From: an uncultured Gammaproteobacteria bacterium
GTDB lineage: Bacteria; Patescibacteriota; Microgenomatia; Levybacterales; UBA12049
Direction of reading: 5' to 3'
DNA length: 64,000 nucleotides
Assembly: GCA_965230895.1 (NCBI GenBank)
Contig: OZ246394.1
Span: forward strand, 377,316-441,315
The notes beneath the pieces are model-generated. The model saw only the letters and a program-made list of their open reading frames with translations. It ran no database searches and was not told where the DNA came from. Positions 30,688 through 53,254 of the stretch are shown here, piece by piece (position 1 is the first letter of the stretch; each line of letters opens with the position of its first letter). A program made the translations under genes and the position numbers.

Positions 30688-31308
30688 TTATTTCGTTTCA
30701 ATACTGACAAGTTCTGCTCGAACCATGTGTCTGTAAATATCATTTGGTCCATCACATGTGATCAAAGTCACTGATGGTTTTTCTGTGGGATAAAAAACAT
30801 CAACTTGTGTAGGTTTGATTGTTTTGATAGTGGTTACTTTATATGTGGCCTTGTAATTTTTTCCGTACAAGACGATTTCTTGTCCGACTTTAACATCTTT
30901 AATTGGGAGAAAAGCATTTGCCTGTGCGTGTCCAAAAAGACCGACATTACCATCTTTGGTATTTACCAAACTTGTACCTTCTGCATAGTTCGCTACTGCT
31001 GGTTGTACTTCCCACGTCCCGTTTTTAAGTGGTACTGAAACAACTTTCTTATCCAATTTAATACTCTCGATAACGATTCGTTCTGGTTTAAATGTTTTGT
31101 TCTTTACAGCGTCTTCAGTTGTTTCAGTACCACAATCAGTTGTGCAGGCATTGGTCTGTGTTTGCCACGACAAACCCTGCACCCATTCTGAAATGTTACT
31201 TCCATTGAAGAATTCATTCTTCAAAGAGCCTAACTGTATCAGTGAAGCTAGGACTGTGATTGTTAGTATCACAGCAAACGTATTCAGTTTCATGCGTAAA
31301 ACTTTCAT
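30688..31308 (-). CDS. Sortase (intact catalytic triad)
   Basis: N-terminal TM; His in …GNVGLFGHAQ…, Cys in …TLITCDG… (TLxTC), Arg in …YRHMVRAEL…. Confidence 0.8.
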   Translation of the reverse strand: MKVLRMKLNTFAVILTITVLASLIQLGSLKNEFFNGSNISEWVQGLSWQTQTNACTTDCGTETTEDAVKNKTFKPERIVIESIKLDKKVVSVPLKNGTWEVQPAVANYAEGTSLVNTKDGNVGLFGHAQANAFLPIKDVKVGQEIVLYGKNYKATYKVTTIKTIKPTQVDVFYPTEKPSVTLITCDGPNDIYRHMVRAELVSIETK

Positions 31309-31313
31309 AAACC

Positions 31314-31493
31314 TTATTTGTTGAACATGTAACGACTGATATGTCCTACCAACATAATAAGTAATAATGTATTTACAGCGACAAATCCAACCGCAATAAG
31401 TGGGTGCACTTTGTCAGCAAGCATAAGACCTGCGGCTGATGTAGCTGGTAATGTTGTTGCTGCTCCTACTAATCCTTTTCCATATTCGTTCAT
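31314..31493 (-). CDS. 59-aa mini-protein consisting of a short N-tail plus a complete LPXTG-like sorting signal (MNEYGKGLVGAATTLPATSAAG-TM-ISRYMFNK); not in the ORF track (<60 aa)
   Basis: Translated by hand from the minus strand; paralog of the 61-aa ORF at 42746-42931 with invariant YGKG, LPATSAAG and ISRY; sits between GT2 and sortase. Confidence 0.5.
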   Translation of the reverse strand: MNEYGKGLVGAATTLPATSAAGLMLADKVHPLIAVGFVAVNTLLLIMLVGHISRYMFNK

Positions 31494-31534
31494 AATCTAA
31501 TCACCTCCTTCTTGACTCGCCCTAAGGGCGGGTA

Positions 31535-32833
31535 TTACCTGGTTCCCCAGGCTGTTGAGTAACCAACTCTACGAAACGCAGAGTGGCCAAGCGAAATTAT
31601 ATAAGTAAGTGTCGAAAGGATAGATTTGGTCACGATATTGTAGAAATAAAATAAATATGAGCCAAACAATACCAGACTTAAGAAGTTGCTATAAATAAAT
31701 TCTGGTAATATAGAGAGTTTTATCAACCAATCGTTCGTATCACGATCAGCATACTCACGCATAACTATGATGTTATAAATTGTTGAAATAGCAAAACTAC
31801 CCCATGCCAGGAAAATAAGTACAGGAATTAAGCCTTGTGTTCGTGTATAGCTATCAGCAAACATAAACGACAGACCAACCAATACAAACAAACTTAAGAA
31901 AGAAGCATGGCCGACAAAATCTTGAAAGACTGAAGGAATATTTCTCCAATGCTGAGCAAGGACGTGCAAACCACCGCTTGTCCAACGTGCTCGTTGCTTC
32001 CAAAGTGCTTCTGCAGTTTCTGGTACCTCTGTCCATGCAATTGCTTTTTTAGCAATTTTTACTTCCCAACCTTGTATCTTCAATCGTGCTGTAATGTCAT
32101 AATCTTCAATCAAATGACCTGTACTAAATCCATTAATTGATTCAAGCACTTCCATTCGGAAAGCTGTAAGCATTCCTTGCATGACCAATGGCCCTTTCAA
32201 GAAGCCATTATCTGAGATTTTGGTGATATTAAAGCCATGATACTCGAGTCCTTGGAGACGAGTTACTATGTTTTTATTCTTATTTGTAATTCTGACTTGG
32301 GAGCAAACGGCTCCAATTTTATAACTTGAGAATAATGTGTTTACCATATTTGGTATCGTTTCTTTATTGATGACTACATCATCATCGAAGGTGAATACCG
32401 CATCAGGCTTAATAGCAAGTGATTGGAGATATTCAATTCCATAATTTAACGCACCAGCTTTTAAGGTGTTTTTCGGAGTTCGTAGAGAAACTATCTGAAG
32501 ATTGTTCGCTGCGAGCCAATTAATCTTACTGAGCACAGGTGCTGTATCAACGTTTAAAGGAGTACAATCATCGACTACTACTACAAGTACTTTTGAATGG
32601 TATTTTACGATTGATTCAACGAGTTGTACGGTCATTTCACTCGGACGGAAGGTCGGGATAATGACTGCTACGTTTTTTCTTGAGAAGACTGATCTTGTAT
32701 GTATACTTACTGGCTTTTTCGGCACAAAGAAATGGCCGACCTGTGCGACTGTTTCTATAAGGTTCTGGTTTAATTTAGTCTTACGATTCATACTATGAGT
32801 CGTATTATAACCTATAATAATGTGGATTGTCAA
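31535..32833 (-). CDS. Processive family-2 glycosyltransferase (IcaA/PgaC/NodC/cellulose-synthase-like), membrane-embedded
   Basis: …AVIIPTFRP…, DxD …FTFDDDVV…, QxxRW …WKQRARWTSGGL…; 4-5 C-terminal TM helices. Confidence 0.8.
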   Translation of the reverse strand: MTIHIIIGYNTTHSMNRKTKLNQNLIETVAQVGHFFVPKKPVSIHTRSVFSRKNVAVIIPTFRPSEMTVQLVESIVKYHSKVLVVVVDDCTPLNVDTAPVLSKINWLAANNLQIVSLRTPKNTLKAGALNYGIEYLQSLAIKPDAVFTFDDDVVINKETIPNMVNTLFSSYKIGAVCSQVRITNKNKNIVTRLQGLEYHGFNITKISDNGFLKGPLVMQGMLTAFRMEVLESINGFSTGHLIEDYDITARLKIQGWEVKIAKKAIAWTEVPETAEALWKQRARWTSGGLHVLAQHWRNIPSVFQDFVGHASFLSLFVLVGLSFMFADSYTRTQGLIPVLIFLAWGSFAISTIYNIIVMREYADRDTNDWLIKLSILPEFIYSNFLSLVLFGSYLFYFYNIVTKSILSTLTYIISLGHSAFRRVGYSTAWGTR

Positions 32834-32912
32834 GTACTATGGGGCTAAATTTTGGGTATAAAAAAAGCACGGGTATTTCTATACTCGTGCTACTTAAAAC
32901 GACTAATAAGCC

Positions 32913-35243
32913 TTATTTACTAAGACTTACTGAGTCGATGTACAAGTTAAATGTACTATTTGGTGTTGTGTAGTATTGCAATCTTACTTTATTAACATTT
33001 GCACTTGTTGGAACATATTGGAATGATTGTACTCCAGTTGTTGGACCCGTAACCATACCCTTCCATTGTCCTGAAAGCCAATTTCCTGCTGCATCGTATT
33101 CATCGATGTAGAATCCGAATTCACCTGTTCCTGTAAGAGCACTGATGAATTGTGACCATGTGTATGTTGTAGCAGGTGTTACTGTGATCATGTCACTGAA
33201 TGCATGCGCATAATTTGTGTTAGCTGCGATGTGCAAACTGTTCGCTCCAGCATTCCCCTTTGTTGTTGTATCAACTGAGAAGTCAGATGTATCTCGTGTC
33301 CAGTTAGCTGCGAATCCACTTGTTACTGTTTCGAATCCACCATTTACTACCAAGTTTGTTGCAGGTGTCCCTGTTGGCGCAACTGTTGGAGTTGCACTTG
33401 GTGTTCCTGTAGGAGTACTTGTTGGTGTAACACTAGGCGTACCTGATGGTGTTGCTGTTGGAGTTACACTTGCTGCTGTATTAGTTAATGCATAGTTATC
33501 AACTGTAGCTGTTCCTGTTGAATTAGCTGTAAGGTATGTTTGGACTCGGATTGAGTTAACCAACGTTGATGTTGCTTTGTAAGCTCGTGAGAATGTTGAT
33601 GTAACACCATTTGCTACTGCGCCCAACCATTGACCTGAAATCCAAGTACCTTGTGCATTGTATTCGTCGATGTAGAAGCCAAGTTCGCCTGATGTTAATC
33701 CACCTGTGTTTGCTACTGCACTAAAGTTATATGTAGCTGCTGTATCGATTCCAGAAACAGTTTGGAATAAGTGAGCTGCTGCTGTATTACCTTTTATAGA
33801 TGCTTCACCATTCGCTGCTGTAACGTTTACTGTGTTATCAGTTGTCCAAGGAGTCAAACCATCTGTGAATGATCCATTAACGATAACATTATTCGCTGCT
33901 GGAGTTGGAGTTACACTTGGTGTACCTGATGGTGTTGCTGTTGGTTCAGCACTCGGTGTAGGTGTAACACTTGGTGCACCATCAATGTTGTTCAAGTTAA
34001 CACTATCAATGTATGCTGTTCCTGTAGCTCCACCTGTAAGGTAGGTTTGGACTCGAACTGAGTTCACAAGGTTTGAAGTTGCATTGTAAAGCTTTGTGAA
34101 GAACCCAACTGTACCGTTTGTAACCATACCTAACCATTGTCCTGAGATCCAGTTACCGTTCGCATCATATTCATCGACATAGAATCCGAGTTCACCTGCA
34201 GTCAAACCTGTTGCATTATAGAATGCATCAAGGATGTAACTAGAGTTAAATGAAACATTTGTCAAACCTGAGAATAAGTGAGTAGCTGAAGCAGCACCTG
34301 TCATACTAACTGATTGTGTTGGTGAACCGTAGTTACCATGGTTAGCATTGTCAGCTTTTACTGCTGTTGCATTATCTGTGTTCCATCCATTTGCAAGTCC
34401 TGCTTCAAATCCTGAGTTTTGAAGTACATTTGCTCCAGGGATAGTGATACCTTGCTCTGTTGTAACAACTTGGATTTGTCCTGCGTTAACCTTTGTTTGA
34501 ACATAATTCGCCATTGTTGTAAGGTTTGCTGTTGTTACTGTGTATTCGTAATTAGGGTTCTTTGCAACTGCTGTGTCATGGAAGACAAGAATTAACCATT
34601 GCTTGTTTGCAATTGCTTGATCAACCCATGCTTGTACTTGTGCTGGTGTTGTCGCGTCATTAACATCTTGTACCATCAAGATAGCTCTATTATAAGGTGC
34701 ACTGTTTAATGCATCTCGATCTTGGAAAGCTCGATGTGATTTGTAGTATTTAAGGATTTCTGCAATTGTGTTGTTGTCATATGCTCCAAATGGTGAAGCA
34801 AAATTAGTAACGTTTAATCCATTTGCTTGGAATGCTGTATTTGAAGTTGTTAATTCAGCTTCATTTTGTGTAGCTGTAACTGTAGGCATTTCTACGTGAG
34901 TTCGTGTGTGACCACCAATTTCCCATCCATAAACATCTTGCAATTCTCGTACCTGTGCCCAAGTAATTCCTGGCTGATTATCATCCAAAGTAATTTGGCC
35001 ATCTGGAACTCCTGAAGTTAGGTAAAGAACACCATCGATTCCTCGTGCTTCAAGAATTGGAGCTGCAAGTGTTCGAGTAGATGCGAAACCATCATCAAAT
35101 GTGAAAGAAACTCGTGCCTTATTAAGTTCTGAGAGGTTAGTTATTTTAGCTGCTGATGCTACTGGAGCTTGTGACAAAACAAGAGCCGCCATCAATGCGA
35201 AAGCGGTCAAAGACTTTACTACTTTGTTTACTAAGTTGTTCAT
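32913..35243 (-). CDS. Large secreted surface protein: N-terminal NodB polysaccharide deacetylase + 3 carbohydrate-binding (CenC/CBM4_9-like) β-sandwich modules separated by Pro/Thr linkers
   Basis: Signal peptide; NodB motifs …VSFTFDDGFAS…, …GGHTRTHVEM…; 3 × …GELGFYVDEYDANGNWISGQWLGMVTNG… modules; linkers TPTPSAEPTATPSGTPSVTPTP. Confidence 0.8.
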   Translation of the reverse strand: MNNLVNKVVKSLTAFALMAALVLSQAPVASAAKITNLSELNKARVSFTFDDGFASTRTLAAPILEARGIDGVLYLTSGVPDGQITLDDNQPGITWAQVRELQDVYGWEIGGHTRTHVEMPTVTATQNEAELTTSNTAFQANGLNVTNFASPFGAYDNNTIAEILKYYKSHRAFQDRDALNSAPYNRAILMVQDVNDATTPAQVQAWVDQAIANKQWLILVFHDTAVAKNPNYEYTVTTANLTTMANYVQTKVNAGQIQVVTTEQGITIPGANVLQNSGFEAGLANGWNTDNATAVKADNANHGNYGSPTQSVSMTGAASATHLFSGLTNVSFNSSYILDAFYNATGLTAGELGFYVDEYDANGNWISGQWLGMVTNGTVGFFTKLYNATSNLVNSVRVQTYLTGGATGTAYIDSVNLNNIDGAPSVTPTPSAEPTATPSGTPSVTPTPAANNVIVNGSFTDGLTPWTTDNTVNVTAANGEASIKGNTAAAHLFQTVSGIDTAATYNFSAVANTGGLTSGELGFYIDEYNAQGTWISGQWLGAVANGVTSTFSRAYKATSTLVNSIRVQTYLTANSTGTATVDNYALTNTAASVTPTATPSGTPSVTPTSTPTGTPSATPTVAPTGTPATNLVVNGGFETVTSGFAANWTRDTSDFSVDTTTKGNAGANSLHIAANTNYAHAFSDMITVTPATTYTWSQFISALTGTGEFGFYIDEYDAAGNWLSGQWKGMVTGPTTGVQSFQYVPTSANVNKVRLQYYTTPNSTFNLYIDSVSLSK

Positions 35244-35386
35244 ATATAAAATTGGACAGTTTCATATTGAGCAGATTACATCTATTTATATAGATGAGAA
35301 TCGGATGATATCATAGATAGGCAAAGTATGTCAACAGGAGATTGCTAAGTTTCTGGTTGTTTTACTTATTCTATTCAGAATGTATG

Positions 35387-38023
35387 TTATTTGTATAGAG
35401 GGTTTTTTAAAAGATAGTCATTTATAATAATTTGTTCCTTTACTATTTTTTCAAAATCTACATCTGAATTTAACGCAAAATCAGCATTTTTGAAGTTTTG
35501 ATTAAAGAAAATTACTGCTTTAATCTTAGGATAGCTTGGTAATGTTACAAGAGCGTCTTTAAACCACTGTTCTTTATCTCCACCTTTACTTGTCGTGGAT
35601 GTTTCTGCAAGCATAATTGGTTTGTTCAATTTATCCAATTCTCCATAGGCTTTACCTATTGTTTGATCAAGAGTAAGCCATTTTGTTTTTGCATTTGAAC
35701 TTCCCCAATTAAATCCACTGAACCCTACCCAATCAACATACTCATCGCCTGGGTAATATGAAAGCATTGATGATGTACTTCCATGACTGTCTGTATTATT
35801 AGGAGCCCAGACCCAGACAACATTGGTTGCACCTTCTTCTTCAAAGATGTTATGAACATGTCTCCACATCGCGATATATGTTTTAGGGTCATTTTTGCTA
35901 CCCCACGGATACCAATCTCCATTCATCTCATGCGCAAATCGTAAGAAAACAGGCTGTTTAAAATCAGCTGCCTCTTTTGCAAATTTTCTTATGTACTCAT
36001 CATGGTCACCTTCAATGATTGATTGGGGAGAATAAATATTCTTCGCGGAAGGATCAGTACTAAATTTTTTAGATTCCCATGGTTCCCAAGTAATTATTGG
36101 AACAAGATTATTTTCAGAAAGTTTTTGTACATATACTTTGTCAAATGTATTGGTTGATGACCAATCCTGATAGTACATACTTAAAGATGTTTTTTCCTCA
36201 GGTATTGTAGTTAACTTAAAGTTGTTTGAATGAGCATTAAGAGAGGGGTGATAATATCCATAGTATACACCACTTGCCGGAACCAATAACTCTTTTTGAG
36301 GAGTTGGTGAAATTTGCTCGCTTAAGGTTTTCAAACTGGCAGATGTTTGAAATTCTGGGATAGTGGTGACATAATAACCAATTAATCCCATGACTACTAC
36401 TGCCGTTAAACCGCGTGTCAATAAAGAATAACCAAAGGTGTTACTCATGATTCGTGAAGTACTATTTTTGATTGCGAATACTATGTTTTCGAAAACTGAA
36501 AAGTCGTAATTTTCTCTAACGATAAGGTAAAATCCTAAACTCAATATAATGACATCAAAAGCAGCCCAAAAGAAATTAAGAAGAGCACCTACATTACCAA
36601 CGGCATGTTGATACCCGTACAATAACCCACATGCTAATAAAATAGCGACAATCCCTTGAAGTTTATAAACAGCGAAAGGATTTTCTTTCTCATATTTCTT
36701 AATAGTTACAATAAAGGAAAGTTCTTTTTTAAACACACTCGAAAGGAATGCGCTTACAAATATTGGAAACGAAGCAATATCTAGTACAAGACTTTTGATA
36801 GGATTTCGGAAAAGTGTAGCATAAAGGATACTGTTATACAGTAACAACGGACCATAAACAAATGCGAGATACTGCCATGTATTTGCATTTACAAGGGCAA
36901 GACCAAAGAATAAATATGGTAATGGAGCAAGCATTAGGATCAAATCACGAACACCGATCAAATAATATGATGCAGATAACAAATAATGAAACTTTTGTCT
37001 TATTGTTAAAGGACCAAATACTATTTGTTTTAGGTAATGAAATGAAACATCAAAACTTCCTTTTGCCCAACGTTGTTGTTGACTAAAGTATTGTTTCAAT
37101 GAAGAAGGAGCAATACCTTCAGCGAGGACTTCAGGAATAAATACACCTTTACTGCCTCTTAAATGAAGCTCCAACGAAGTTGCATAGTCTTCAGTAATAA
37201 ACTTAGTATCCATTCCACCAATGCTATCTAATGCGCTTCTTCGAATCGCAAAATTTGTACCGCATAAGAAAAGTGCATTATCATGTCCTTTAGAGTCACA
37301 TATGTGGTCAAAGAAGAAGATTTGATGCGCTGCAGAAGCTTTTGCAACCCATGTTTTTTCATTTTTGTATCTTTGTGGACTTTGCGCAAAATCAATTGAA
37401 GGATTATTAAATGGTTTAGCTATCTCAGTTAGGAAATGCTCTTTTACAGCAAAATCGGCATCAAGTACAATATCTAATGTATTAAAAGCATCTTGTGCTG
37501 GAATTTCTCGCAGACCATTATTGATATTACCTGCCTTAAATCCTCCACCTACAGAACGTGCAATATGGATTACATCCAGCTCTTCTGCTAAGGCTTGAAT
37601 GTCTCTCCAATTGTCTTTATTTGCAGCTTTACCGTCATTTAATACGATAACTTTAGGTTGTACATTTGGGTTAGTAGTACTAATGTAATAATCTCTAGCT
37701 TTCTTTGCTGCCAAAATAGTTTCTCTTATTACTTCTTCTGGCTCTCCGCAGACGCAAATAAACATATTCATTTCTACATTCTTATTCTCATTTACCGCAG
37801 TGTAACGTCTGTATTTTCGAGGCCAAAGAGAATAAAACATTCCATAGAGATGAAATATTGTATGGAGTTCAGCAATGAAAAGAATAATACTAAACACCAT
37901 CAAGGCTGGGGAGAAATTAATAAAAGTAATTCTATAGAAGAAATAGACAGTAAGAAGCATCGCTCCGCTCAGAAGAAGGGAACGCAATCCTATACTTTTT
38001 AAGAACGTCTTAAAATCATTCAT
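35387..38023 (-). CDS. Cellulose-synthase-like processive GT2 (BcsA-like) fused to a C-terminal clan GH-A (GH26-like) glycoside hydrolase domain
   Basis: GT2: …VLDADF…, …FITEDYATS… (TED), …QQQRWAKGS… (QxxRW), multiple TM; C-terminal: …LRFAHEMNGDWYPWG…, …YYPGDEYVDWVGFSGFN…, …IMLAETS…. Confidence 0.8.
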   Translation of the reverse strand: MNDFKTFLKSIGLRSLLLSGAMLLTVYFFYRITFINFSPALMVFSIILFIAELHTIFHLYGMFYSLWPRKYRRYTAVNENKNVEMNMFICVCGEPEEVIRETILAAKKARDYYISTTNPNVQPKVIVLNDGKAANKDNWRDIQALAEELDVIHIARSVGGGFKAGNINNGLREIPAQDAFNTLDIVLDADFAVKEHFLTEIAKPFNNPSIDFAQSPQRYKNEKTWVAKASAAHQIFFFDHICDSKGHDNALFLCGTNFAIRRSALDSIGGMDTKFITEDYATSLELHLRGSKGVFIPEVLAEGIAPSSLKQYFSQQQRWAKGSFDVSFHYLKQIVFGPLTIRQKFHYLLSASYYLIGVRDLILMLAPLPYLFFGLALVNANTWQYLAFVYGPLLLYNSILYATLFRNPIKSLVLDIASFPIFVSAFLSSVFKKELSFIVTIKKYEKENPFAVYKLQGIVAILLACGLLYGYQHAVGNVGALLNFFWAAFDVIILSLGFYLIVRENYDFSVFENIVFAIKNSTSRIMSNTFGYSLLTRGLTAVVVMGLIGYYVTTIPEFQTSASLKTLSEQISPTPQKELLVPASGVYYGYYHPSLNAHSNNFKLTTIPEEKTSLSMYYQDWSSTNTFDKVYVQKLSENNLVPIITWEPWESKKFSTDPSAKNIYSPQSIIEGDHDEYIRKFAKEAADFKQPVFLRFAHEMNGDWYPWGSKNDPKTYIAMWRHVHNIFEEEGATNVVWVWAPNNTDSHGSTSSMLSYYPGDEYVDWVGFSGFNWGSSNAKTKWLTLDQTIGKAYGELDKLNKPIMLAETSTTSKGGDKEQWFKDALVTLPSYPKIKAVIFFNQNFKNADFALNSDVDFEKIVKEQIIINDYLLKNPLYK

Positions 38024-38068
38024 GGACTATAGGATATCATAAATACGTCCAAAAGTCAAGCTATAGGT

Positions 38069-39151
38069 CTATAAAGAGGTTTTAAATGCGTTGAGGCTTG
38101 ATGAGGATGAATCTATTCTCCAATCGGCTTCTTTTATTAAATTAAACCAAATAACCTCATTTACCCTTGGAAAAGCGGTATGAATCGAATAGAACATATC
38201 ATTTACCCAAGCTTCTTTATTGCCCCCTTGTTCGGAAGAAGCAATCTCGGCAATTATTATGGGCTTATCATATTGAGCAGCAATATATTGATAGGTTGGC
38301 TGAAAGAGTGCACTAAAAGACCTCCAGCCCCCATAACTACGTGTTGTTCCGAAGTTAAAGCCATCAATACCTATAACATCAACTACATCGCTTCCTGGAT
38401 AATATCCATTTATTTCACTAGGATTTTCTGTTATATTCACGCACCACATCCATTGCACATTCGTAACTCCTTCTTGCTGGAAAACTGTATGTATATGACG
38501 GTAAGCTGCAATATATTCTTCAGGCCTCTTTCCCCACGGATACCAATCACCATTCATTTCATGCCCAAAGCGCAATGTGACAGGACTGCCGTATTGCTTT
38601 ATGGACTGGGCAAATTGTCTTATATATGTATCATGCGTTCCTTGGGAAATTTCTTTAAGGTAATCAACAGCTTGAGATGAGCCTTGTTCAGGGTTCCAGG
38701 GCTCCCAGGCCAGTTGTATTTTTTTCCTGCTTTGTTTACTGTATGTAAGTTGAGTAAGGTTAAAACCTTTATTATTTTGATTCCCAAATTGTTTAAAAAT
38801 AGAAAGTGTTGTTATATTTGTATCTAATTGTTTTTCTAAAGAAGTAACTGTATTTTGGTTATTTGCGTAGTCATCAACTACAACACCAAATAGTAGTGTA
38901 TTATTTTTCGGAACTACTGCTTGTATTGTGGGAGTCGGAGTCACAACTGTAATAGGTTTTGGTTTTGCAGTAGGAGTTGGTGTAATCTCTTGAAATCGAG
39001 TTGCTGTAGTTTTTTGACTGGCAGCAAAGGCTGGTTGTGTTGTTTTAGATTGTGATTTAAAAAAGAATGCAGTGAGCAAGGTACTACTTAAGACGATGAG
39101 AAGGAGCGTTATCATTGTTATATTTTTCTTAGAGAACTTAGTAAATTTCAT
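38069..39151 (-). CDS. Membrane-anchored clan GH-A (GH26-like) glycoside hydrolase, paralog of the C-terminal domain of the upstream fusion
   Basis: N-terminal TM; …LRFGHEMNGDWYPWG…, …YYPGSDVVDVIGIDGFN…, …IIIAEIAS…. Confidence 0.7.
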   Translation of the reverse strand: MKFTKFSKKNITMITLLLIVLSSTLLTAFFFKSQSKTTQPAFAASQKTTATRFQEITPTPTAKPKPITVVTPTPTIQAVVPKNNTLLFGVVVDDYANNQNTVTSLEKQLDTNITTLSIFKQFGNQNNKGFNLTQLTYSKQSRKKIQLAWEPWNPEQGSSQAVDYLKEISQGTHDTYIRQFAQSIKQYGSPVTLRFGHEMNGDWYPWGKRPEEYIAAYRHIHTVFQQEGVTNVQWMWCVNITENPSEINGYYPGSDVVDVIGIDGFNFGTTRSYGGWRSFSALFQPTYQYIAAQYDKPIIIAEIASSEQGGNKEAWVNDMFYSIHTAFPRVNEVIWFNLIKEADWRIDSSSSSLNAFKTSL

Positions 39152-39260
39152 GATCCAGTGTGAGCACGATCAGGATATATGAAATCACTTAATGTGTCAA
39201 GAAGATATTTGCTGTTTAGCCTGATTTAACAGGAGAATTGCGTAAGAAGATCGCGTAAGC

Positions 39261-42035
39261 TTAGTTAGCTGATAGACTAACAGAGTCGATATAGATAGGG
39301 AATGTACTGTTTGGTGTTTTGTAATACTGAAGTCGTACACTTTTAACTGTTGCACTCGTAGGAGTATACGAGAAAGTTTTTGTTCCTGTTGATGCTCCAT
39401 TAACCATACCTTTCCATTGTCCTGAGACCCAAGTACCTGCTGCATCATATTCATCGATATAGAATCCGAATTCACCTGTTCCTGCAAGCGCCATTATGTA
39501 TTGTGTCCATGTATATGTTTTTGTTGAATCAACTGAAACACTAGAACTGAATGCGTGAGCGTAAGCTGTATTTGCTGGAATGAACAGACTGTTCGCTCCA
39601 TTGTTTCCCTTTGATGTAGTATCAATTGTTGTAACATCTCCTGTGTCATGAGTCCAATTTGATGCAAATCCACCTGCAACTGTTTCAAAACTACCGTTTG
39701 GAATTAAGTTAGTTACTACAGGTGTTGTAGTTGGTGTAGGCGTAACAGTACTTGTTGGTGTCACAGTTGGTGTTGGTGAAACTGTACCTGTAGGTGCTGC
39801 TGTGTTTGTCATACTATAGTTGTCTACAAATGCTGTCCCGTTAGAGTTTGCAGCCATGTATGTTTGAATGCCAATTCTTGATACAAGTGCACTAGTAGCT
39901 TTATATGTTTTTTCAATGCTTGTTACTGCACCATTTACAACTGATCCCAACCATTGACCAGAAATCCATGTTCCATTTATGTCATATTCATCGATATAGA
40001 AGCCAAGCTCCCCTGATGTAACTGCTGTTGCATCAGCTGTAGCTTTAAGCAAGTATGTAGCTGTTGTATCAATAGCGTTTAGGTTGTAGAACAAGTGAGA
40101 TGCTGTTGTTGTTCCTGTAAATTTAACTGCATTTTGGCCACCATTTGCATCAGCGACAACGTTTGCAGGTTTATCAGTAGTCCAACCATTTGAGATCCCT
40201 TGATCAAATGAACCATTTGTAATTACGTTCGTTGCTGCAGGTGTCGGAGTTGCAACCGCTGGACCAGTTAAACTATAGTTGTCAACATATGCTGTTCCGT
40301 TAGAGTTTGCAGCCATGTATGTTTGAATACCAATTCTCGCAACGAGATTACTTGTAGCTTTATAAGCTTTTTGGAAAGTTGACGTTACACCGTTAGATAC
40401 ATTACCAAGCCACTGTCCTGATATCCAAGTACCTGCTGCATTGTATTCATCAATATAAAAACCAAGTTCTCCACTAGTAAGACCATTTGCGTTTACCGTT
40501 GAACTAAGAAGGTATGTAGCTGTTGTATCAATAGCGTTTAGGTTGTAGAACAAGTGAGATGCTGTTGTTGTTCCTGTAAATTTAACTGCATTTTGGCCAC
40601 CATTTGCATCAGCGACAACGTTTGCAGGTTTATCAGTAGTCCAACCATTTGAGATCCCTTGATCAAATGAACCATTTGTAATTACGTTCGTTGCTGCAGG
40701 TGTTGGCGTAGGTGTACCACTTACACTAGCTGTAGGAGTTGGAGTTACACTTGTTGTTGGCGCAGGTGTACCATCCAAGTTGTATACTTGAACACTATCA
40801 ACATATGCTGTACCTGTTGCACCCGCTGTAAGGTATGTCTGTACTCGGATAGTATTTACCAATTCAGAAGTTGCGTTATAAAGCTTTGTGAAGAATCCAA
40901 TTGTACCATTTGTAACCATACCCAACCATTGTCCTGAGGTCCAGTTACCATTTGCATCATATTCATCGACGTAGAATCCGAGTTCACCTGATGTTAAGCC
41001 AAGCGAATTAACGAAAGCGTCCAATACATAACTTGAATTGTATGATACTTGTACATTTCCTGAGAATAAATGTCCTTCAGTTGCAGTTCCAGTCAAGTTA
41101 ATAGATTGTACTGGTGAACCGTAATTACCATTATTTCCATTGTCAGCAGCTACACCAGCAGCATTATCTGTTGTCCAACCGTCAGCGAGACCATTTTCAA
41201 ATCCTGAGTTTTGCAAGATGTTCACTCCTGGGATTGTAATTCCCTGTTCAGTTGTAACGACTTGGATTTGTCCTGCATTAACCTTTGTTTGAACATAACT
41301 CGCCATTGTTGTAAGGTTTGCTGTTGTTACTGTATATTCATAATTTGGATTTTTCTTTGTTGCTGTGTCATGGAACACAAGGATCAACCATCGCTTTTCA
41401 GTGATTGCTTGATCAACCCATGCTTGGACTTGTGCTGATGTTGTCGCGTCATTAACGTCTTGTACCATTAATATATCTTTATGAAGTGGGTTACTATTTA
41501 ATGCATCTCGATCTGCAAAACCTCTGTGAGACTTATACAATTTCAAAATTTCAGTTAATGTCATGGTATCGTATGCACCAAACGGTGAAGCAAAGTTAGT
41601 AACGTTTAATCCATTTGCTTTAAATGCTGCGTTTGAATTTGCAAGTTCTGCTACGTTTTGTTCTCGTGTAATTGTAGGCATTTCAGCATGGTCTACTGTG
41701 TGACCACCGATTTCCCAACCATAAACGTTTTGGAGTTCTCGTACTTGGTCCCAAGTAATTCCTGGTTGGTTATCATCTAGCGTAGCTGTACCATCTGGAA
41801 CACCAGATGTGAGGTAGAGAACACCATCAATACCATGTGCTTCAAGAATTGGAGCTGCGAGTGTTCGAGTTGATGCAAATCCATCGTCAAATGTGAAGGA
41901 AACTCGTGCACGATCAAGATCTGAGATACTATTTAATCGAGCTGCTTGAGCAATTGGTGCTTGCGCCAAGAAGAGGACCGCACTCAAAACGATTGCGGTT
42001 AATGCTCGTACTATTTTATTAGTTAATGTATTCAT
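39261..42035 (-). CDS. Large secreted surface protein (paralog of 32913-35243): NodB deacetylase + 4 CBM-like modules; contains a 202-bp perfect intragenic direct repeat
   Basis: N-terminal ~200 aa nearly identical to the paralog (…RVSFTFDDGFASTRTLAAPILEA…); modules with …GELGFYIDEY…SGQWLG…; identical DNA at 40053-40254 and 40512-40713. Confidence 0.8.
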   Translation of the reverse strand: MNTLTNKIVRALTAIVLSAVLFLAQAPIAQAARLNSISDLDRARVSFTFDDGFASTRTLAAPILEAHGIDGVLYLTSGVPDGTATLDDNQPGITWDQVRELQNVYGWEIGGHTVDHAEMPTITREQNVAELANSNAAFKANGLNVTNFASPFGAYDTMTLTEILKLYKSHRGFADRDALNSNPLHKDILMVQDVNDATTSAQVQAWVDQAITEKRWLILVFHDTATKKNPNYEYTVTTANLTTMASYVQTKVNAGQIQVVTTEQGITIPGVNILQNSGFENGLADGWTTDNAAGVAADNGNNGNYGSPVQSINLTGTATEGHLFSGNVQVSYNSSYVLDAFVNSLGLTSGELGFYVDEYDANGNWTSGQWLGMVTNGTIGFFTKLYNATSELVNTIRVQTYLTAGATGTAYVDSVQVYNLDGTPAPTTSVTPTPTASVSGTPTPTPAATNVITNGSFDQGISNGWTTDKPANVVADANGGQNAVKFTGTTTASHLFYNLNAIDTTATYLLSSTVNANGLTSGELGFYIDEYNAAGTWISGQWLGNVSNGVTSTFQKAYKATSNLVARIGIQTYMAANSNGTAYVDNYSLTGPAVATPTPAATNVITNGSFDQGISNGWTTDKPANVVADANGGQNAVKFTGTTTASHLFYNLNAIDTTATYLLKATADATAVTSGELGFYIDEYDINGTWISGQWLGSVVNGAVTSIEKTYKATSALVSRIGIQTYMAANSNGTAFVDNYSMTNTAAPTGTVSPTPTVTPTSTVTPTPTTTPVVTNLIPNGSFETVAGGFASNWTHDTGDVTTIDTTSKGNNGANSLFIPANTAYAHAFSSSVSVDSTKTYTWTQYIMALAGTGEFGFYIDEYDAAGTWVSGQWKGMVNGASTGTKTFSYTPTSATVKSVRLQYYKTPNSTFPIYIDSVSLSAN

Positions 42036-42141
42036 ATATATTTATTAACAATTAAATGTTAAATTTATAAGACTCATAGTAACATATATAGAACCTTATG
42101 TCAATATATTAAATAACTTATAGTTATATATTGACTTGAAC

Positions 42142-42732
42142 TTATTTTTCGTTAGAAAGTTCTATCTTTACTAATGCAGCTTTTACAATATATTGCTTGT
42201 TCGAGAACGTTTCATCTGATGTAACAAGAGTCAAAATAGGTGTTTTTGTTGGTGCAAAAACATTTGTATCTGTTGTTTTTGCCAATCTTGAAGAAGTTAC
42301 TTTATATGTTGCTTTTTGACCGTTACCATAGACTACAATTTCAGTATTATTATTAAGTTGTTGGATTCGAGTAAATCCATCAAGTCTATCGTTTGCAAAA
42401 AGTCCAACGTTTCCTTCTTTATCATTGACCAAGCTTGTGCCTTCAGCAAAGTTGGCAACATGTGGAAGAAGCTCCCAAGTACCATCTCTTAATGGTACTG
42501 AAAATACTGGAAGGTCAATTTCTACAGAAGAGATAACGATTCGTTCAGGAGTGAAAGCTGATAATGTCTTAACAGGAGTAACTGTTGGTGTCTTTGATGC
42601 AAATGGCGTTGCTGTCAATTCTTGAGAATTAGCTACAGTAGATGACACACCAGTACCAAGCGCACCAAGTTGCGCGATACTAGCAAAAGCCGCCAAAACA
42701 AAAATAGTTGTATAAACACTTACTTTCTTCAT
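42142..42732 (-). CDS. Sortase-fold paralog with all three catalytic residues substituted (degenerate / pseudo-sortase)
   Basis: Aligns along its length with the sortase at 30688-31308, but GLFGHAQ→GLFANDR (His→Asn), TLITCDG→TLVTSDE (Cys→Ser), VRAEL→VKAAL (Arg→Lys). Confidence 0.7.
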   Translation of the reverse strand: MKKVSVYTTIFVLAAFASIAQLGALGTGVSSTVANSQELTATPFASKTPTVTPVKTLSAFTPERIVISSVEIDLPVFSVPLRDGTWELLPHVANFAEGTSLVNDKEGNVGLFANDRLDGFTRIQQLNNNTEIVVYGNGQKATYKVTSSRLAKTTDTNVFAPTKTPILTLVTSDETFSNKQYIVKAALVKIELSNEK

Positions 42733-42745
42733 ATCGTTAATTGAC

Positions 42746-42931
42746 TTATTTAGCTCTATTAACTAAATATCGACTGATTTGACCTGCTAAGATAACAAGC
42801 CATACGACATTAAGTACTATAAAACCTGCAAGTACAATCGGATTACTTAAGTCAGCAAAGAATGCTCCTGCTGCTGAAGTAGCCGGTAATACCGCTGCGC
42901 CTAATACTTGTCCTTTTCCGTAATCTGTCAT
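42746..42931 (-). CDS. 61-aa mini-protein, paralog of 31314-31493 (MTDYGKGQVLGAAVLPATSAAG-TM-ISRYLVNRAK)
   Basis: Same architecture and invariant LPATSAAG; same position between GT2 and sortase homolog. Confidence 0.5.
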   Translation of the reverse strand: MTDYGKGQVLGAAVLPATSAAGAFFADLSNPIVLAGFIVLNVVWLVILAGQISRYLVNRAK

Positions 42932-42946
42932 AGCTTTCTCCTTTCG

Positions 42947-44209
42947 TTAGTTTTTTGTACCCCACTTTGTTGAGAATCCTGCCTTATTGAAGGCTGCGAG
43001 TCCCCAGTTATATGGAGCATTGAATAATGATATTCTTGTTGCAATTGGCTTAAAGACTTTGTTGTATACGATAAATAAGTATGATCCGAGCAAGATAAGA
43101 CTTAACAAGTTACTGTAAATAAGTTCTGGAAGAACGGTTAACTTCATTAACCAATCTCTCTTATCACTATCTTCATATAAAGATAATGAAACGACATTAA
43201 AGATGAATGCTACAAGGAAGTTGAATAATGAAAGAGCGAATAATATAAGTACTGTTTCTGGATTACTTGTTTCAGTTCGTACAAAAAAGAATGACAACAC
43301 AATCAATCCAAAAAGACTGATGAACAACATATGTCCGATAAGATCTTGGTAAATAACATCAAATTTCTTCCAGAATTCACCCAACACATGGAGTCCACCA
43401 CTTACCCATCGAACACGCTGTTTCCAGAGTGCTTCGATTGATTCAGGAACTGTTGTCCATGCAATTGCTTTTTGAGCAATCTTTACATTCCAACCTTCAC
43501 TCTTCAATCGTGCTGTAATATCATAGTCTTCAATCAAGTGGCCTTTTGTAAAACCATTAATTTCTTTAACTGCTGCTGTTCGAAAAGCTGTTAACATGCC
43601 ATGCATTACAAGTGGTCCTTTTAAGAAACCATTGTCAGCAATCTTTGTGATATTAAAGTTATGGTATTCAAGTGCTTGCAATCGAGTTAAGAAGTTTTTG
43701 TTCTTATTAATAACTCGTACTTCAGAACAGACGGCACCGACTGTATCGTCAGAATACAATGTCGCAACCATTTGTGGAACTGTGTTCTTAGTAATGATCA
43801 CATCATCATCGAAAGTGAAGATAACATCTGGAACATGCTTGAGACTCAAGACATATTCAATACCATGATTTAAGGCCGCTGCTTTTAACTCATTTTTAGG
43901 AGTTCGCAAATAAGCCATATTATTGTGTTCGTTTGCAAGAGCTTTGATTTTGTTAAGTGTCTTAAGATTTTTTTCAGTTTCTGGAGTACAATCATCAATG
44001 ACAACAAGAATTGCTTCAGGATGCCAATCAAGAATAGACTTAATTAGGTTATAGGTCATATCAGTTGGAGTATGAGTTGGTACCAGAATTGCAGGAAGTT
44101 TACTCTGAATAAGCTTCTCACTCATCAAGATTATTTCCTTTTTAGGAGCGAAAAAGTTCACGGATTCTTCCGCGATTCGTTTGAATGTATTTGTATTTTT
44201 TCTCTTCAT
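42947..44209 (-). CDS. Processive family-2 glycosyltransferase, paralog of 31535-32833
   Basis: …AILVVIDDCTPE…, …FTFDDDVI…, QxxRW …WKQRVRWVSGGL…; C-terminal TM helices. Confidence 0.8.
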   Translation of the reverse strand: MKRKNTNTFKRIAEESVNFFAPKKEIILMSEKLIQSKLPAILVPTHTPTDMTYNLIKSILDWHPEAILVVIDDCTPETEKNLKTLNKIKALANEHNNMAYLRTPKNELKAAALNHGIEYVLSLKHVPDVIFTFDDDVIITKNTVPQMVATLYSDDTVGAVCSEVRVINKNKNFLTRLQALEYHNFNITKIADNGFLKGPLVMHGMLTAFRTAAVKEINGFTKGHLIEDYDITARLKSEGWNVKIAQKAIAWTTVPESIEALWKQRVRWVSGGLHVLGEFWKKFDVIYQDLIGHMLFISLFGLIVLSFFFVRTETSNPETVLILFALSLFNFLVAFIFNVVSLSLYEDSDKRDWLMKLTVLPELIYSNLLSLILLGSYLFIVYNKVFKPIATRISLFNAPYNWGLAAFNKAGFSTKWGTKN

Positions 44210-50614: not shown

Positions 50615-53254
50615 TTACTTTTTCGTCTGTAAGTTTTTAGATGTCCAGAGGTTTGGTAAATCGTTATTGTAGAGTGCAGTTCCGAACCAAGCCCAATTCT
50701 GTGTATAATAATTCTTAGAATCTTCCCAATAACTTCCATCCTTATCTTCGTACAACTTGTTCAATACTTGCTTGTCATATACTTCTTTTGCAGCAGCTTT
50801 ATCAGTAACAACAAAGTTTGCCAAATTTGACGCATATGCACTTGCTGATTCATAGTCTTCCCATGGTTTTCCATCATGTGTATACGCTACACTGATTCGT
50901 TGATTGTTTTTCCATTCCTTGCGGATGAAATCATTCTTTGAGAGATATGCCTGCGCACGAGGTTCTTTGAACCATTGATAATCAAGAGCAATTCTCCAAG
51001 GAGTTCTAAATGCATCAAAGCCATATTCTGTTGAGTCCAAACCTTTTTCTGGAGATTTAATAATTCTTCCATTCGCATCAACTGCACACCAATTTGGAGC
51101 GAGCCCTGCAGATGATTCTTTATCCAGATCGCTATCAGTACATGCATTCAGCACTTCATACGATGTGTCTACGAGATCCATCCAATCATGTTTTGTATCA
51201 ATTTCTGCAAAGATTCGGTAACTACTTGGTGCAAGATATGATGGATTGATGATCGCTGCATTCTTTGCCTTAGCCCAGTTACCTGCGACGAGATATGGCT
51301 TACCTCTGACAACTTTCACTTCGTTGTCCCAAATTGCTTGCATAATCGTTCGACCATCGATAATATAGCCGGGATTGTTCCATCGCTTTCCAGCAAAAGC
51401 GAGTGCCAGAGCGATATCTTCATCTGCATCAGTTGCTGAACTTCGGTCAACCACACCCATGGTTCCATCGGCTTTCTTTCCCCACTTCCATGCAATAAGA
51501 TTGTTCTCTTGTTGCATGTTACGTTTGGTGAATCCCCATGCTTTATCAAAGGTTTGCTTATCGTTCATCCAGACTGCTCGAAGCATTGTGTATGATTGCG
51601 CTTCGGATGTTGTTAAGTTATTCGCTGGATCAACAGCATTTCCATCTTTCTTGATAAATGTACTTTTATATGTTTCCCATGTCGAGACAAGAATTCTTCG
51701 AGAGTTCTTTACAGCCCAGATCTGAACATACCAACCATCTCCTGCGAAACTCGTAATCGGATTGGACTGAGCCAAAGCACTTCCGGTCATTGGGATTTCA
51801 CCTGTACCCAAGTCACCACCGATAAGCGGTGTAAACAAGACATAATCAATATTATTGTAGTCATTCTTCAAAATCTTTTCTTTAATGTCTTTATCACCAT
51901 CAACTTTCCAATAATATTCTGCATTTGCGAAATTGTTGTTATTTCGATAGTTCAAATCGAGGTATGCATAATTATCAATTGCATAAAAAGCATTTGGATT
52001 TTGTCGACTCAAGATCCAATTGACCGCTTCGATCTGCGCATTTGTTTCATTTGAGGTATAGATATTAAATTTCCCTGAGCGGACATTGTTTGAATAATTG
52101 AAGACTAAGACACCCATATAAATGATAAATGCCATAATTGGGAAAATTGCATAAATCTGTAATGGCCAGAACCTCATCCGGGCAAAGAAGTGATAGATTC
52201 TATAAAGAACGTATGACGTGGTGAGTGCTACTAACGGAACCAAGGGAATGATATAGAATTCAAGCACCAATCCTCCACGAAGTAAGAAAGCCCAGTAAGA
52301 AACAGCAAGTCCAGCAATAATTCGTGCCGCAACACTTCGAATAGCCAAGAGGAGCGTGATAAGAGTACTGATTGCCCCAACAATCATGAATGATGGATCA
52401 TCATTTTTCCAGTTCCCTGTCATCTCCCAGAAACTCGAATCAGGATTAAGAATACTGACATTTCCCCGTCCCCCTTGGAATTGCAATGTTCCCAAAAGAC
52501 TTACGTGCTCATGTTGGCCACCCAGAAGCGTTCCTGCCGGAAAGAATTCACCTTTAAACATACTGAAGATGAAATAAAGCGAGATAACGACACCTGCGAC
52601 AGCAATCCATTTGATTGTACCGAATATTCTATTTATTTTATGCAATTGTGAATAAACCAGTGCGGCCATGAACGGCAGGAAGAAAATCGCACTTTCTTTA
52701 CTAAGGACAGAAATACCAAATGTCACCGCACTGGCGATAATCCAGCGAAGTCGTTGCTTACTAAAGAGTACAAAAGCAACTGACAAGAGCAGCCAAAATA
52801 CCATGATATTGTCCAGAAGTACACGTCGCTGGAAATAAATTGCCAAAGGTGAAAGTGAAAACATCAGCACAGCAAACGAACCAACCATCTTAGAATTTGT
52901 GATCTTCTTTCCTATGAAATACAGCAGCAATGCTGATCCAATGTGTAGCAAGAGCATGAGTACGCGGCCTGAGTTAATGGCAAACCCAAAAGTAAATAAG
53001 CCACCTGTAAGCTTTATCCATAGTGCAATAAGCATCCAGCCAACTGGAGCATGATCGTACCAATAGGTATACGGAGCTAATTTGCCATCATTGATGATCG
53101 CCCAGGCTTGTGCCATATATGTTCCCTCATCAGATTCATAATATGGATAACCAAGCATGTTATAACCATGAGCAATTGCCGCAATCGCCAGCAAACCAAA
53201 TACAAGAACGTATTCCATCTTATTACTGTTAAAAAATTCTTTAATCTTTTTCAT
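50615..53254 (-). CDS. GT-C-fold membrane glycosyltransferase (PMT/ArnT-like, polyprenyl-phosphate-sugar dependent) fused to a C-terminal GH8 (BcsZ-like endoglucanase) domain
   Basis: N-terminal ~12 TM with …YYESDEGTY… first-loop acidic motif; C-terminal GH8 signature …SSATDADEDIALALAFAGKRW…. Confidence 0.8.
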   Translation of the reverse strand: MKKIKEFFNSNKMEYVLVFGLLAIAAIAHGYNMLGYPYYESDEGTYMAQAWAIINDGKLAPYTYWYDHAPVGWMLIALWIKLTGGLFTFGFAINSGRVLMLLLHIGSALLLYFIGKKITNSKMVGSFAVLMFSLSPLAIYFQRRVLLDNIMVFWLLLSVAFVLFSKQRLRWIIASAVTFGISVLSKESAIFFLPFMAALVYSQLHKINRIFGTIKWIAVAGVVISLYFIFSMFKGEFFPAGTLLGGQHEHVSLLGTLQFQGGRGNVSILNPDSSFWEMTGNWKNDDPSFMIVGAISTLITLLLAIRSVAARIIAGLAVSYWAFLLRGGLVLEFYIIPLVPLVALTTSYVLYRIYHFFARMRFWPLQIYAIFPIMAFIIYMGVLVFNYSNNVRSGKFNIYTSNETNAQIEAVNWILSRQNPNAFYAIDNYAYLDLNYRNNNNFANAEYYWKVDGDKDIKEKILKNDYNNIDYVLFTPLIGGDLGTGEIPMTGSALAQSNPITSFAGDGWYVQIWAVKNSRRILVSTWETYKSTFIKKDGNAVDPANNLTTSEAQSYTMLRAVWMNDKQTFDKAWGFTKRNMQQENNLIAWKWGKKADGTMGVVDRSSATDADEDIALALAFAGKRWNNPGYIIDGRTIMQAIWDNEVKVVRGKPYLVAGNWAKAKNAAIINPSYLAPSSYRIFAEIDTKHDWMDLVDTSYEVLNACTDSDLDKESSAGLAPNWCAVDANGRIIKSPEKGLDSTEYGFDAFRTPWRIALDYQWFKEPRAQAYLSKNDFIRKEWKNNQRISVAYTHDGKPWEDYESASAYASNLANFVVTDKAAAKEVYDKQVLNKLYEDKDGSYWEDSKNYYTQNWAWFGTALYNNDLPNLWTSKNLQTKK

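What the first reader, a model, noticed from the sequence alone, without database searches (positions are those of the whole stretch)
40053..40713. 202-bp perfect direct repeat inside the 924-aa deacetylase-CBM gene (tandem CBM module duplication)
DNA at 40053-40254 is identical base-for-base to 40512-40713, an offset of 459 bp (153 aa). It encodes two identical copies of …PAATNVITNGSFDQGISNGWTTDKPANVVADANGGQNAVKFTGTTTASHLFYNLNAIDTTATYLL…. Such a recent in-frame module duplication is a substrate for RecA-mediated expansion or contraction of CBM copy number, i.e. a length- or phase-variable surface protein. It also explains why this paralog is 924 rather than 776 aa. The N-terminal NodB domains of the two giant paralogs are also near-identical at the protein level, permitting inter-locus recombination.
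Basis: seen in the sequence. Interest (0 to 1): 0.6.

Follow-up and report, generated by a model that had tools for sequence, protein, structure and literature searches.

The report
Gene-conversion patch between two old CBM modules
Two neighbouring sugar-binding modules of a secreted polysaccharide deacetylase share a 192-base stretch of perfect identity because one old, diverged module recently overwrote part of the other, which is an ordinary example of repeats homogenising each other and not a fresh duplication.

Summary
The repeat is real but shorter than claimed. It is the only exact direct repeat of 40 nt or more in the window, and it is far longer than the modules' divergence allows (bound about 2e-20).

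It is not a recent module duplication. The rest of the 459-nt unit is only 69% identical, with saturated synonymous divergence (pS 0.70, against 0 of 47 synonymous sites in the tract). That is at least as diverged as the 776-aa paralog or the ortholog in another genome, which also has four modules.

The best reading is a recent intragenic gene-conversion tract between modules 2 and 3 of a Patescibacteria protein with a signal peptide, a NodB/CE4 deacetylase domain and four CBM-like beta-jelly-roll modules. An older 78-nt patch, a 71-nt perfect tract in the ortholog and tracts up to 83 nt in a five-module relative show this recurs in the family.

The extra module does explain 924 versus 776 aa. 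In-frame loss of one module by recombination across the tract is possible but untested. Programmed phase variation has no support. This is a new member of a known kind, of low to moderate interest.

The parts
39261..42035 (-). Gene A: 924-aa secreted protein with a signal peptide, a NodB/CE4 deacetylase domain and four CBM-like modules joined by Pro/Thr linkers
   Evidence: ORF, translation. Pfam PF01522 scores 55 bits against a cutoff of 23.1. Four module matches.
41943..42035 (-). Probable Sec signal peptide (aa 1-31, ...LAQAPIAQA/AR)
   Evidence: Read from the translation: basic n-region, hydrophobic core and an AQA motif. This is inference; no predictor was run.
41226..41939 (-). NodB/CE4 polysaccharide deacetylase domain (aa 33-270), carrying the TFDDG and HTVDH metal and catalytic motifs
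   Evidence: Pfam PF01522 matches aa 41-163, E 1e-14. Motifs are visible in the translation.
40743..41225 (-). CBM-like module 1 (aa 271-431)
   Evidence: Module HMM envelope. Pfam CBM_4_9 E 8e-4, below threshold.
40236..40691 (-). CBM-like module 2 (aa 449-600)
   Evidence: CBM_4_9 E 2.8e-4. AlphaFold2 model with pLDDT 93. Best PDB matches are CBM16, CBM22 and CBM4, TM about 0.75.
39777..40232 (-). CBM-like module 3 (aa 602-753), the old duplicate of module 2
   Evidence: 82.6% aa identity to module 2 overall, and 70% outside the identical tract.
39264..39713 (-). CBM-like module 4 (aa 775-924), the C-terminal module type
   Evidence: it clusters with the last modules of relatives.
40512..40703 (-). 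Copy 1 of the 192-nt perfect tract: end of the linker plus the first 60 residues of module 2 (aa 445-508)
40053..40244 (-). Copy 2 of the 192-nt perfect tract: end of the linker plus the first 60 residues of module 3 (aa 598-661)
40269..40346 (-). Older partly homogenised patch near the C-terminal end of module 2 (gene nt 1690-1767). It is 87% identical to its partner at 39810-39887 and contains a 32-nt exact run.
   Evidence: dS 0.52, against about 2 in the surrounding sequence.
39810..39887 (-). Partner of the older patch, in module 3 (gene nt 2149-2226)
32913..35243 (-). Paralog B: 776 aa, the same architecture with three modules. Used as the reference for dating.

Best explanation
Modules 2 and 3 of gene A are an old tandem duplicate of one CBM-like module. 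Recently a non-reciprocal homologous exchange copied about 192 nt from one module onto the same position of the other, 459 nt away and in register. The exchange was intragenic gene conversion, by RecA-type recombination between sister or misaligned copies or by template switching during replication. It covered the linker end and the first 60 residues of the module and erased all divergence there, while the rest of the unit stayed at about 69% identity.

Shown: the mosaic pattern, its statistical significance, the saturation of synonymous sites outside the tract, and similar mosaics in relatives.

Inferred: the molecular mechanism, the direction of transfer, and that the event is recent on the scale of point mutation.

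Consequence (inferred): the gene now carries a 192-nt in-frame direct repeat. Rare homologous deletion across it would remove exactly one module (153 aa) and give the three-module architecture that dominates the family. The reciprocal event would give five modules.
For: The exact tract is 192 nt and is bounded by mismatches on both sides. Inside the tract 0 of 47.3 synonymous sites differ. In the following 81 codons pS is 0.70 and dN 0.23. The permutation and analytic tests give 0 of 5000 and a bound of 2e-20. Synonymous divergence of the unconverted part is at least that of A versus ortholog A2 (dS 0.87-1.28) and A versus paralog B (0.73-1.31). Outside the tract, aa identities are 70% for m2-m3, 71% for m2-B.m2 and 61% for m3-B.m2. 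A second, older patch has 87% identity and dS 0.52. The ortholog in GCA_964507055.1 also has four modules. Its m2 and m3 are mosaic (72-100% per 60-nt block, with a 71-nt perfect tract) and group with each other rather than with A's m2 and m3. Module-period exact tracts of 44-71 nt occur in 7 of 80 other loci, and tracts up to 83 nt occur among the four similar modules of the five-module relative P0009 (82-88% identical), including non-adjacent ones. There is no Rfam match and no unusual RNA structure in the tract (z = +1.46). No reverse transcriptase matched any of the 30 larger window ORFs scanned, about half of those in the window.
Against: Only one genome carries this sequence, so there is no pre-conversion allele or outgroup close enough to show the event directly. 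P0001 is a singleton, and the nearest A-type relative is 63% identical. Synonymous sites are saturated, so 'older than the speciation' is semi-quantitative. If the contig comes from a short-read metagenome assembly, bubble-popping could have turned 'nearly identical' into 'identical'. Independent duplications in the two lineages cannot be formally excluded as the cause of the m2+m3 pairing in the tree, although that would not explain the mosaic.
Confidence: 0.8

Rival explanations
1. This is a recent tandem duplication of the whole 459-nt module. The C-terminal 60% of one copy was then replaced by recombination with a divergent allele or paralog.
For: The repeat is in frame at exactly one module period, and gene A has one more module than B.
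Against: It needs two events where one suffices. No near-identical donor exists for either C-terminal part: the best is B.m2 at about 70-73% DNA identity. The ortholog already has four modules. There is an older intermediate-identity patch, and similar mosaics occur in relatives.
Confidence: 0.05
2. This is an assembly artefact. Either two similar but non-identical stretches were collapsed to one consensus and traversed twice, or a loop in the assembly graph was traversed the wrong number of times, possibly mixing strains.
For: The close relative's record is a SPAdes co-assembly of short reads, going by its name. A 192-nt exact repeat exceeds typical k-mer sizes. The sequence is a singleton in the databases.
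Against: The result is in frame, with the reading frame and module boundaries intact. The four-module architecture is shared with the ortholog in an independent assembly. The flanks of the two copies are distinct and each continues into its own diverged C-terminal part. Collapse could change perhaps 97% into 100% identity, but it could not create the contrast with the 69% flanks.
Confidence: 0.1
3. This is a programmed variation system: a contingency locus or length-variable adhesin, or a diversity-generating retroelement template/variable repeat pair.
For: Module number varies from 2 to 5 across the family. The middle modules are the fastest-evolving part, at 37-41% aa identity between orthologs against 93% for NodB. 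From my own knowledge, CPR genomes are rich in DGRs.
Against: There are only two copies, and they are identical over 42% of the unit. There are no adenine-specific mismatches, because there are no mismatches at all. Both copies are coding and lie within one gene. No reverse transcriptase or recombinase matched any of the 30 larger window ORFs scanned, about half of those in the window. No population data show switching.
Confidence: 0.04

Closest known systems
Concerted evolution and gene conversion among tandem repeat domains of bacterial secreted or surface proteins (for example streptococcal alpha C/Rib repeats and the staphylococcal SasG/Aap repeats, from my own knowledge; general reviews PMC4534519 and PMC3899988)
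   Same: In-register, in-frame exchange between tandem protein-coding repeats. The mosaic of identical and diverged segments. Repeats within a species resemble each other more than their positional counterparts in a related species. Repeat number varies across the family.
   Different: Here there are only two partners, and they are old and diverged (dS saturated), not long arrays of near-identical units. No copy-number polymorphism has been observed. The protein is an enzyme with CBM-like modules in an uncultured Patescibacteria genome, not an antigen of a pathogen.
Tandem CBM arrays of glycoside hydrolases (for example CBM22-1-CBM22-2 of Paenibacillus barcinonensis Xyn10C, PDB 4xup, and CBM16-1/-2 of Caldanaerobius polysaccharolyticus Man5A, PDB 2zex/2zez)
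   Same: The same beta-jelly-roll fold (TM about 0.64-0.78), arranged as repeated modules joined by linkers next to a carbohydrate-active catalytic domain.
   Different: Sequence identity is only 15-20%. The Pfam CBM_4_9 match is below threshold for these modules. The catalytic partner is a CE4 deacetylase, and the ligand is unknown.
IcaB/PgaB-type CE4 deacetylases of poly-N-acetylglucosamine systems
   Same: An extracellular NodB/CE4 domain with the TFDD and HxxxH motifs, encoded next to a processive GT2 whose best NCBIfam match is PgaC_IcaA (E 4e-35).
   Different: The GT2 scores far below the PgaC_IcaA cutoff (122 against 422 bits). IcaB and PgaB lack CBM-like module arrays. The sortase and the tiny LPXTG-like protein are not part of the ica or pga operons. 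The polymer is unknown.

Membership tests
Intragenic gene-conversion tract between diverged tandem duplicates | An identical run significantly longer than expected from the divergence of the surrounding homologous sequence | tested here: met
   A run of 192 nt against a maximum of 73 in 5000 permutations, with a bound of 2e-20.
Intragenic gene-conversion tract between diverged tandem duplicates | The flanking sequence is homologous, in register, and old (high synonymous divergence) | tested here: met
   pS is 0.70 outside the tract and 0 inside; the ungapped offset is 459 nt.
Intragenic gene-conversion tract between diverged tandem duplicates | The unconverted state is seen in a close relative or in the population | not testable with these tools
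   No close relative carries gene A; the nearest is 63% identical.
Recent tandem duplication of a whole module | The entire duplicated unit is (near-)identical in DNA | tested here: not met
   Only 192 of 459 nt are identical and the remainder is 69% identical.
NodB / CE4 polysaccharide deacetylase (Pfam PF01522) | Profile match above the curated threshold | tested here: met
   55 bits against 23.1, aa 41-163.
NodB / CE4 polysaccharide deacetylase (Pfam PF01522) | Asp-His-His metal-binding and catalytic motifs (TFDD and H-S/T-x-x-H) | tested here: met
   'SFTFDDGF' and 'GGHTVDH' are present in the translation. Motif definitions are from my own knowledge of CE4 enzymes.
NodB / CE4 polysaccharide deacetylase (Pfam PF01522) | Deacetylase activity and substrate | not testable with these tools
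   This needs biochemistry.
CBM4/9/16/22-type carbohydrate-binding module | Sequence-profile membership (Pfam CBM_4_9 PF02018) | tested here: inconclusive
   Modules 1-3 give E 3e-4 to 8e-4, at 20-22 bits against a cutoff of 25.9. Module 4 has no hit. Many homologs carry a precomputed PF02018 hit.
CBM4/9/16/22-type carbohydrate-binding module | Beta-jelly-roll fold superimposable on solved CBMs | tested here: met
   Model pLDDT 93. Foldseek top hits are CBM16 2zex/2zew/3oeb with TM 0.74-0.78, followed by CBM22, CBM4 and CBM61.
CBM4/9/16/22-type carbohydrate-binding module | Binds a carbohydrate | not testable with these tools
   No ligand data exist.
Length- or phase-variable repeat protein (contingency locus) | Copy-number or on/off heterogeneity within a population | not testable with these tools
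   No reads or sibling strains are available; the protein is a database singleton.
Length- or phase-variable repeat protein (contingency locus) | An array of several (near-)identical tandem units | tested here: not met
   Two units, identical over 42% of their length.
Diversity-generating retroelement (template/variable repeat pair) | A reverse transcriptase nearby, and mismatches confined to template adenines | tested here: not met
   No RT matched any of the 30 larger window ORFs scanned, about half of those in the window. The repeat has no mismatches, and both copies are coding.

The most novel reading that the evidence does not exclude
The duplicated middle CBM pair may be the specificity-determining, fast-evolving part of a Patescibacteria polysaccharide-remodelling cassette (GT2, mini-LPXTG protein, sortase, NodB-CBM). 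Recurrent conversion would keep the two modules matched so that both bind the same changing ligand. The long perfect tract would also let the population toggle between three- and four-module forms. That would make it a simple evolvability and length-variation device in an episymbiont's attachment or matrix system.
Probability: 0.12. Interest if true: 0.5.

Novelty: new member of a known kind. Interest (0 to 1): 0.25.

Why it matters
The result corrects the history of the gene. The extra module is old, and the identity comes from homogenisation. It adds a clean, statistically unambiguous example of intragenic gene conversion in an uncultured Patescibacteria genome. It also shows that tandem CBM-like modules in this widespread family of NodB deacetylases with CBM-like modules evolve in concert, and that module number ranges from 2 to 5. 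In practice it marks a spot where short-read assemblies may mis-count or mis-polish modules. It also points to the middle modules as the rapidly diverging part of the protein, and so the likely ligand-specificity part. It does not reveal a new mechanism.

Tried and rejected
(1) An exact-protein look-up for the window gene and for P0001 returned nothing, so the source contig and sibling strains could not be retrieved. The cluster look-up gave no names or accessions.

(2) The genome-contig scan did not contain the window's own genome. The closest locus was the 63% ortholog.

(4) A functional RNA or DNA element as the reason for identity was rejected. Rfam gave only a chance-level hit (E 0.5), and the fold z-score was +1.46.

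(5) A DGR was rejected, as set out under the rival explanations.

(6) Recent conversion from paralog B into A was rejected. No tract between A and B is near-identical, and the longest exact match is 34 nt.

(7) Unequal crossing-over as the sole cause was considered. It would give hybrid modules with two reciprocal identical segments, or a change in copy number, not a single internal patch.

(8) Literature searches for this gene family or this cassette in Saccharibacteria/CPR found nothing specific.

Full report
OBSERVATION. Gene A (window 39261-42035, minus strand, 924 aa) contains an exact direct repeat. Window 40053-40244 is identical to 40512-40703, which is 192 nt at an offset of 459 nt, or 153 codons. 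In gene coordinates the tract is nt 1333-1524 and 1792-1983, aa 445-508 and 598-661. The protein identity extends to 68 aa, because the two codons on each side differ only synonymously. This is the only exact direct repeat of 40 nt or more in the 64-kb window.

WHAT THE GENE IS. Pfam finds a NodB/CE4 polysaccharide deacetylase domain (PF01522, 55 bits). The TFDDG and HTVDH motifs are present. An N-terminal signal-peptide-like segment precedes the domain, and no LPXTG or other anchor follows it.

A profile built from the repeated unit finds four ~150-aa modules, at aa 271-431, 449-600, 602-753 and 775-924, joined by Pro/Thr linkers. Taken alone, modules 1-3 hit Pfam CBM_4_9 just below threshold (E about 3e-4). 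Many homologs carry a precomputed PF02018 hit. An AlphaFold2 model of module 2 built on 33 homologous modules is confident (pLDDT 93, all-beta). Its best PDB matches are CBM16, then CBM22, CBM4 and CBM61, at TM about 0.6-0.78 and 15-20% identity. 'Deacetylase with CBM-like modules' is therefore supported at the fold level. The ligand is unknown.

The 776-aa paralog B (32913-35243) has the same architecture with three modules, so the extra middle module does explain the length difference.

The source organism is a Patescibacteria/CPR bacterium. The window's TypA is 90% identical to one labelled Candidatus Levyibacteriota. Relatives of the deacetylase come from Saccharimonadales, Levybacteria, Woesebacteria, Dojkabacteria and WWE3.

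WHY IT IS NOT A RECENT DUPLICATION. The two 459-nt units are a mosaic. The first 192 nt are 100% identical. The next 243 nt are 68.7% identical. Nei-Gojobori counts give 0 of 47 synonymous sites changed in the tract. In the following 81 codons pS is 0.70 (dS about 2, saturated) and dN is 0.23. That is at least as diverged as gene A versus its ortholog A2 in GCA_964507055.1 (dS 0.87-1.28), or A versus paralog B (0.73-1.31). Outside the tract, module 2 is as similar to B's middle module (71% aa) as to module 3 (70%). With 78 differences over 441 aligned nt, a 192-nt identical run never occurred in 5000 permutations (maximum 73), and an analytic bound is 2e-20. The duplication is therefore old, and the identity was imposed secondarily.

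EVIDENCE THAT HOMOGENISATION RECURS. A second patch (gene nt 1690-1767 versus 2149-2226) is 87% identical with dS 0.52, intermediate between the tract and the background. The syntenic ortholog A2 (L001 10001-12898, 965 aa) also has four modules. Its modules 2 and 3 are 81% identical in DNA and are themselves a mosaic, at 72-100% per 60-nt block with a 71-nt perfect run.

In a neighbour-joining tree, A.m2 pairs with A.m3 and A2.m2 pairs with A2.m3. First and last modules group by position across genomes. Between the orthologs the NodB domain is 93% identical, module 1 is 80% and module 4 is 64%, but the middle modules are only 37-41% identical. This is the pattern of concerted evolution, although independent duplications cannot be formally excluded.

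Among 80 loci from other genomes, 7 have module-period exact tracts of 44-71 nt. In the five-module relative P0009, four modules are 82-88% identical, with perfect tracts up to 83 nt, including between non-adjacent modules. The window's 192-nt tract is the longest seen. Across 120 homologs the module count is 2, 3 (the commonest), 4 or 5; one protein had a single match.

MECHANISM. The simplest account is one non-reciprocal, in-register homologous exchange (gene conversion) between modules 2 and 3, of at most 192 nt. It would arise by RecA-type recombination between misaligned sister copies or by template switching. The mosaic and its age structure are shown. The enzymology, the direction of transfer and the exact timing are inferred.

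One consequence, also inferred, is that a 192-nt in-frame direct repeat 459 nt apart could support rare deletion of exactly one module, giving a 771-aa three-module protein, or the reciprocal expansion. No data here show that this happens.

ALTERNATIVES. A recent whole-module duplication followed by replacement of its C-terminal part needs two events and a donor, and no donor is seen. An assembly artefact could sharpen near-identity into identity, but it cannot create the contrast with the 69% flanks. The four-module layout is also shared with an independently assembled ortholog. A DGR or another programmed system lacks its defining parts. A constrained RNA or DNA element is not supported.

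COMPARISON WITH WHAT IS KNOWN. Homogenisation and copy-number change of tandem coding repeats are well documented for bacterial surface and secreted proteins. General reviews are PMC4534519 and PMC3899988; the specific examples I name come from my own knowledge. This case works in the same way. It differs in having only two old partners, in involving CBM-like modules of a CE4 enzyme, and in coming from a CPR genome. I found no paper describing this gene family or its cassette.

VERDICT. This is a new member of a known kind, with interest about 0.25.

Noticed in passing
window 42746-42931 (-) and 31314-31493 (-); also L001 9145-9330 and 16806-16985, and 26 of the 82 sequences scanned: A tiny ORF (59-61 aa) sits between each GT2 synthase gene and each sortase gene. 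Its product is about 14 N-terminal residues, then an LPXTG-like motif (LPATS here, LPNTG in most Saccharibacteria loci), then a hydrophobic helix and a basic tail. It looks like a sortase substrate with almost no passenger domain and no signal peptide. No NCBIfam match reached threshold; the best was LPXTG_anchor at E 0.098. The deacetylase itself has no sorting motif.
   Followed up: partly
window 30688-44209 versus L001 7869-17612: The cassette of GT2 (PgaC/IcaA-like, below cutoff), mini-LPXTG protein, sortase and NodB-CBM deacetylase is present twice, with the two deacetylase genes facing each other's ends. In the related genome the two deacetylase genes are adjacent. In the window a GH26-like gene (38069-39151) and a GT2-GH26-like fusion (35387-38023, 878 aa) lie between them.
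   Followed up: partly
gene A modules 2 and 3 (window 39777-40691) versus L001 11411-12335: Between syntenic orthologs the middle modules are only 37-41% identical in protein (dN 0.5-0.6). NodB is 93% identical and module 1 is 80%. Paralog B's middle module is 80% identical to its own ortholog. The cause is either very fast divergence or module replacement specific to the duplicated pair.
   Followed up: partly
L010, L012, L015, L016, L019, L023-L025, L030, L033, L036, L039, L041, L044, L048 and others: About 40%-identical full-length relatives of this Patescibacteria protein occur in cultured Micrococcaceae and Microbacteriaceae (Arthrobacter, Pseudarthrobacter, Kocuria, Cryobacterium). From my own knowledge, Actinobacteria are the known hosts of Saccharibacteria, so transfer between host and epibiont is possible.
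   Followed up: no
L001/L002 (CAZDOJ010000001.1, 1.32 Mb), L017, L031: Records titled 'uncultured Gammaproteobacteria bacterium' carry this CPR-type cassette and are the closest relatives of the window. The window's TypA points to Levybacteria/Patescibacteria. The taxonomic labels of these TPA assemblies look wrong.
   Followed up: no
window 50615-53254 (-), 53259-55484 (-), 55879-60015 (+): There are several large fused carbohydrate-active genes. One is a PMT-like membrane glycosyltransferase fused to GH8 (879 aa). One is a double GT2 with a PgaC/IcaA-like half (741 aa). One is a 1378-aa protein with GT2, CelA-like and GT4 regions. Together with GH10 (28806-30566), the window is dominated by polysaccharide synthesis and remodelling.
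   Followed up: no
L082 6001-9168 (GCA_004196315.1): A five-module relative (P0009, 1055 aa) has four modules that are 82-88% identical in DNA, with scattered perfect tracts of 39-83 nt between adjacent and non-adjacent modules. It would be a better system than the window gene for studying inter-module exchange.
   Followed up: partly
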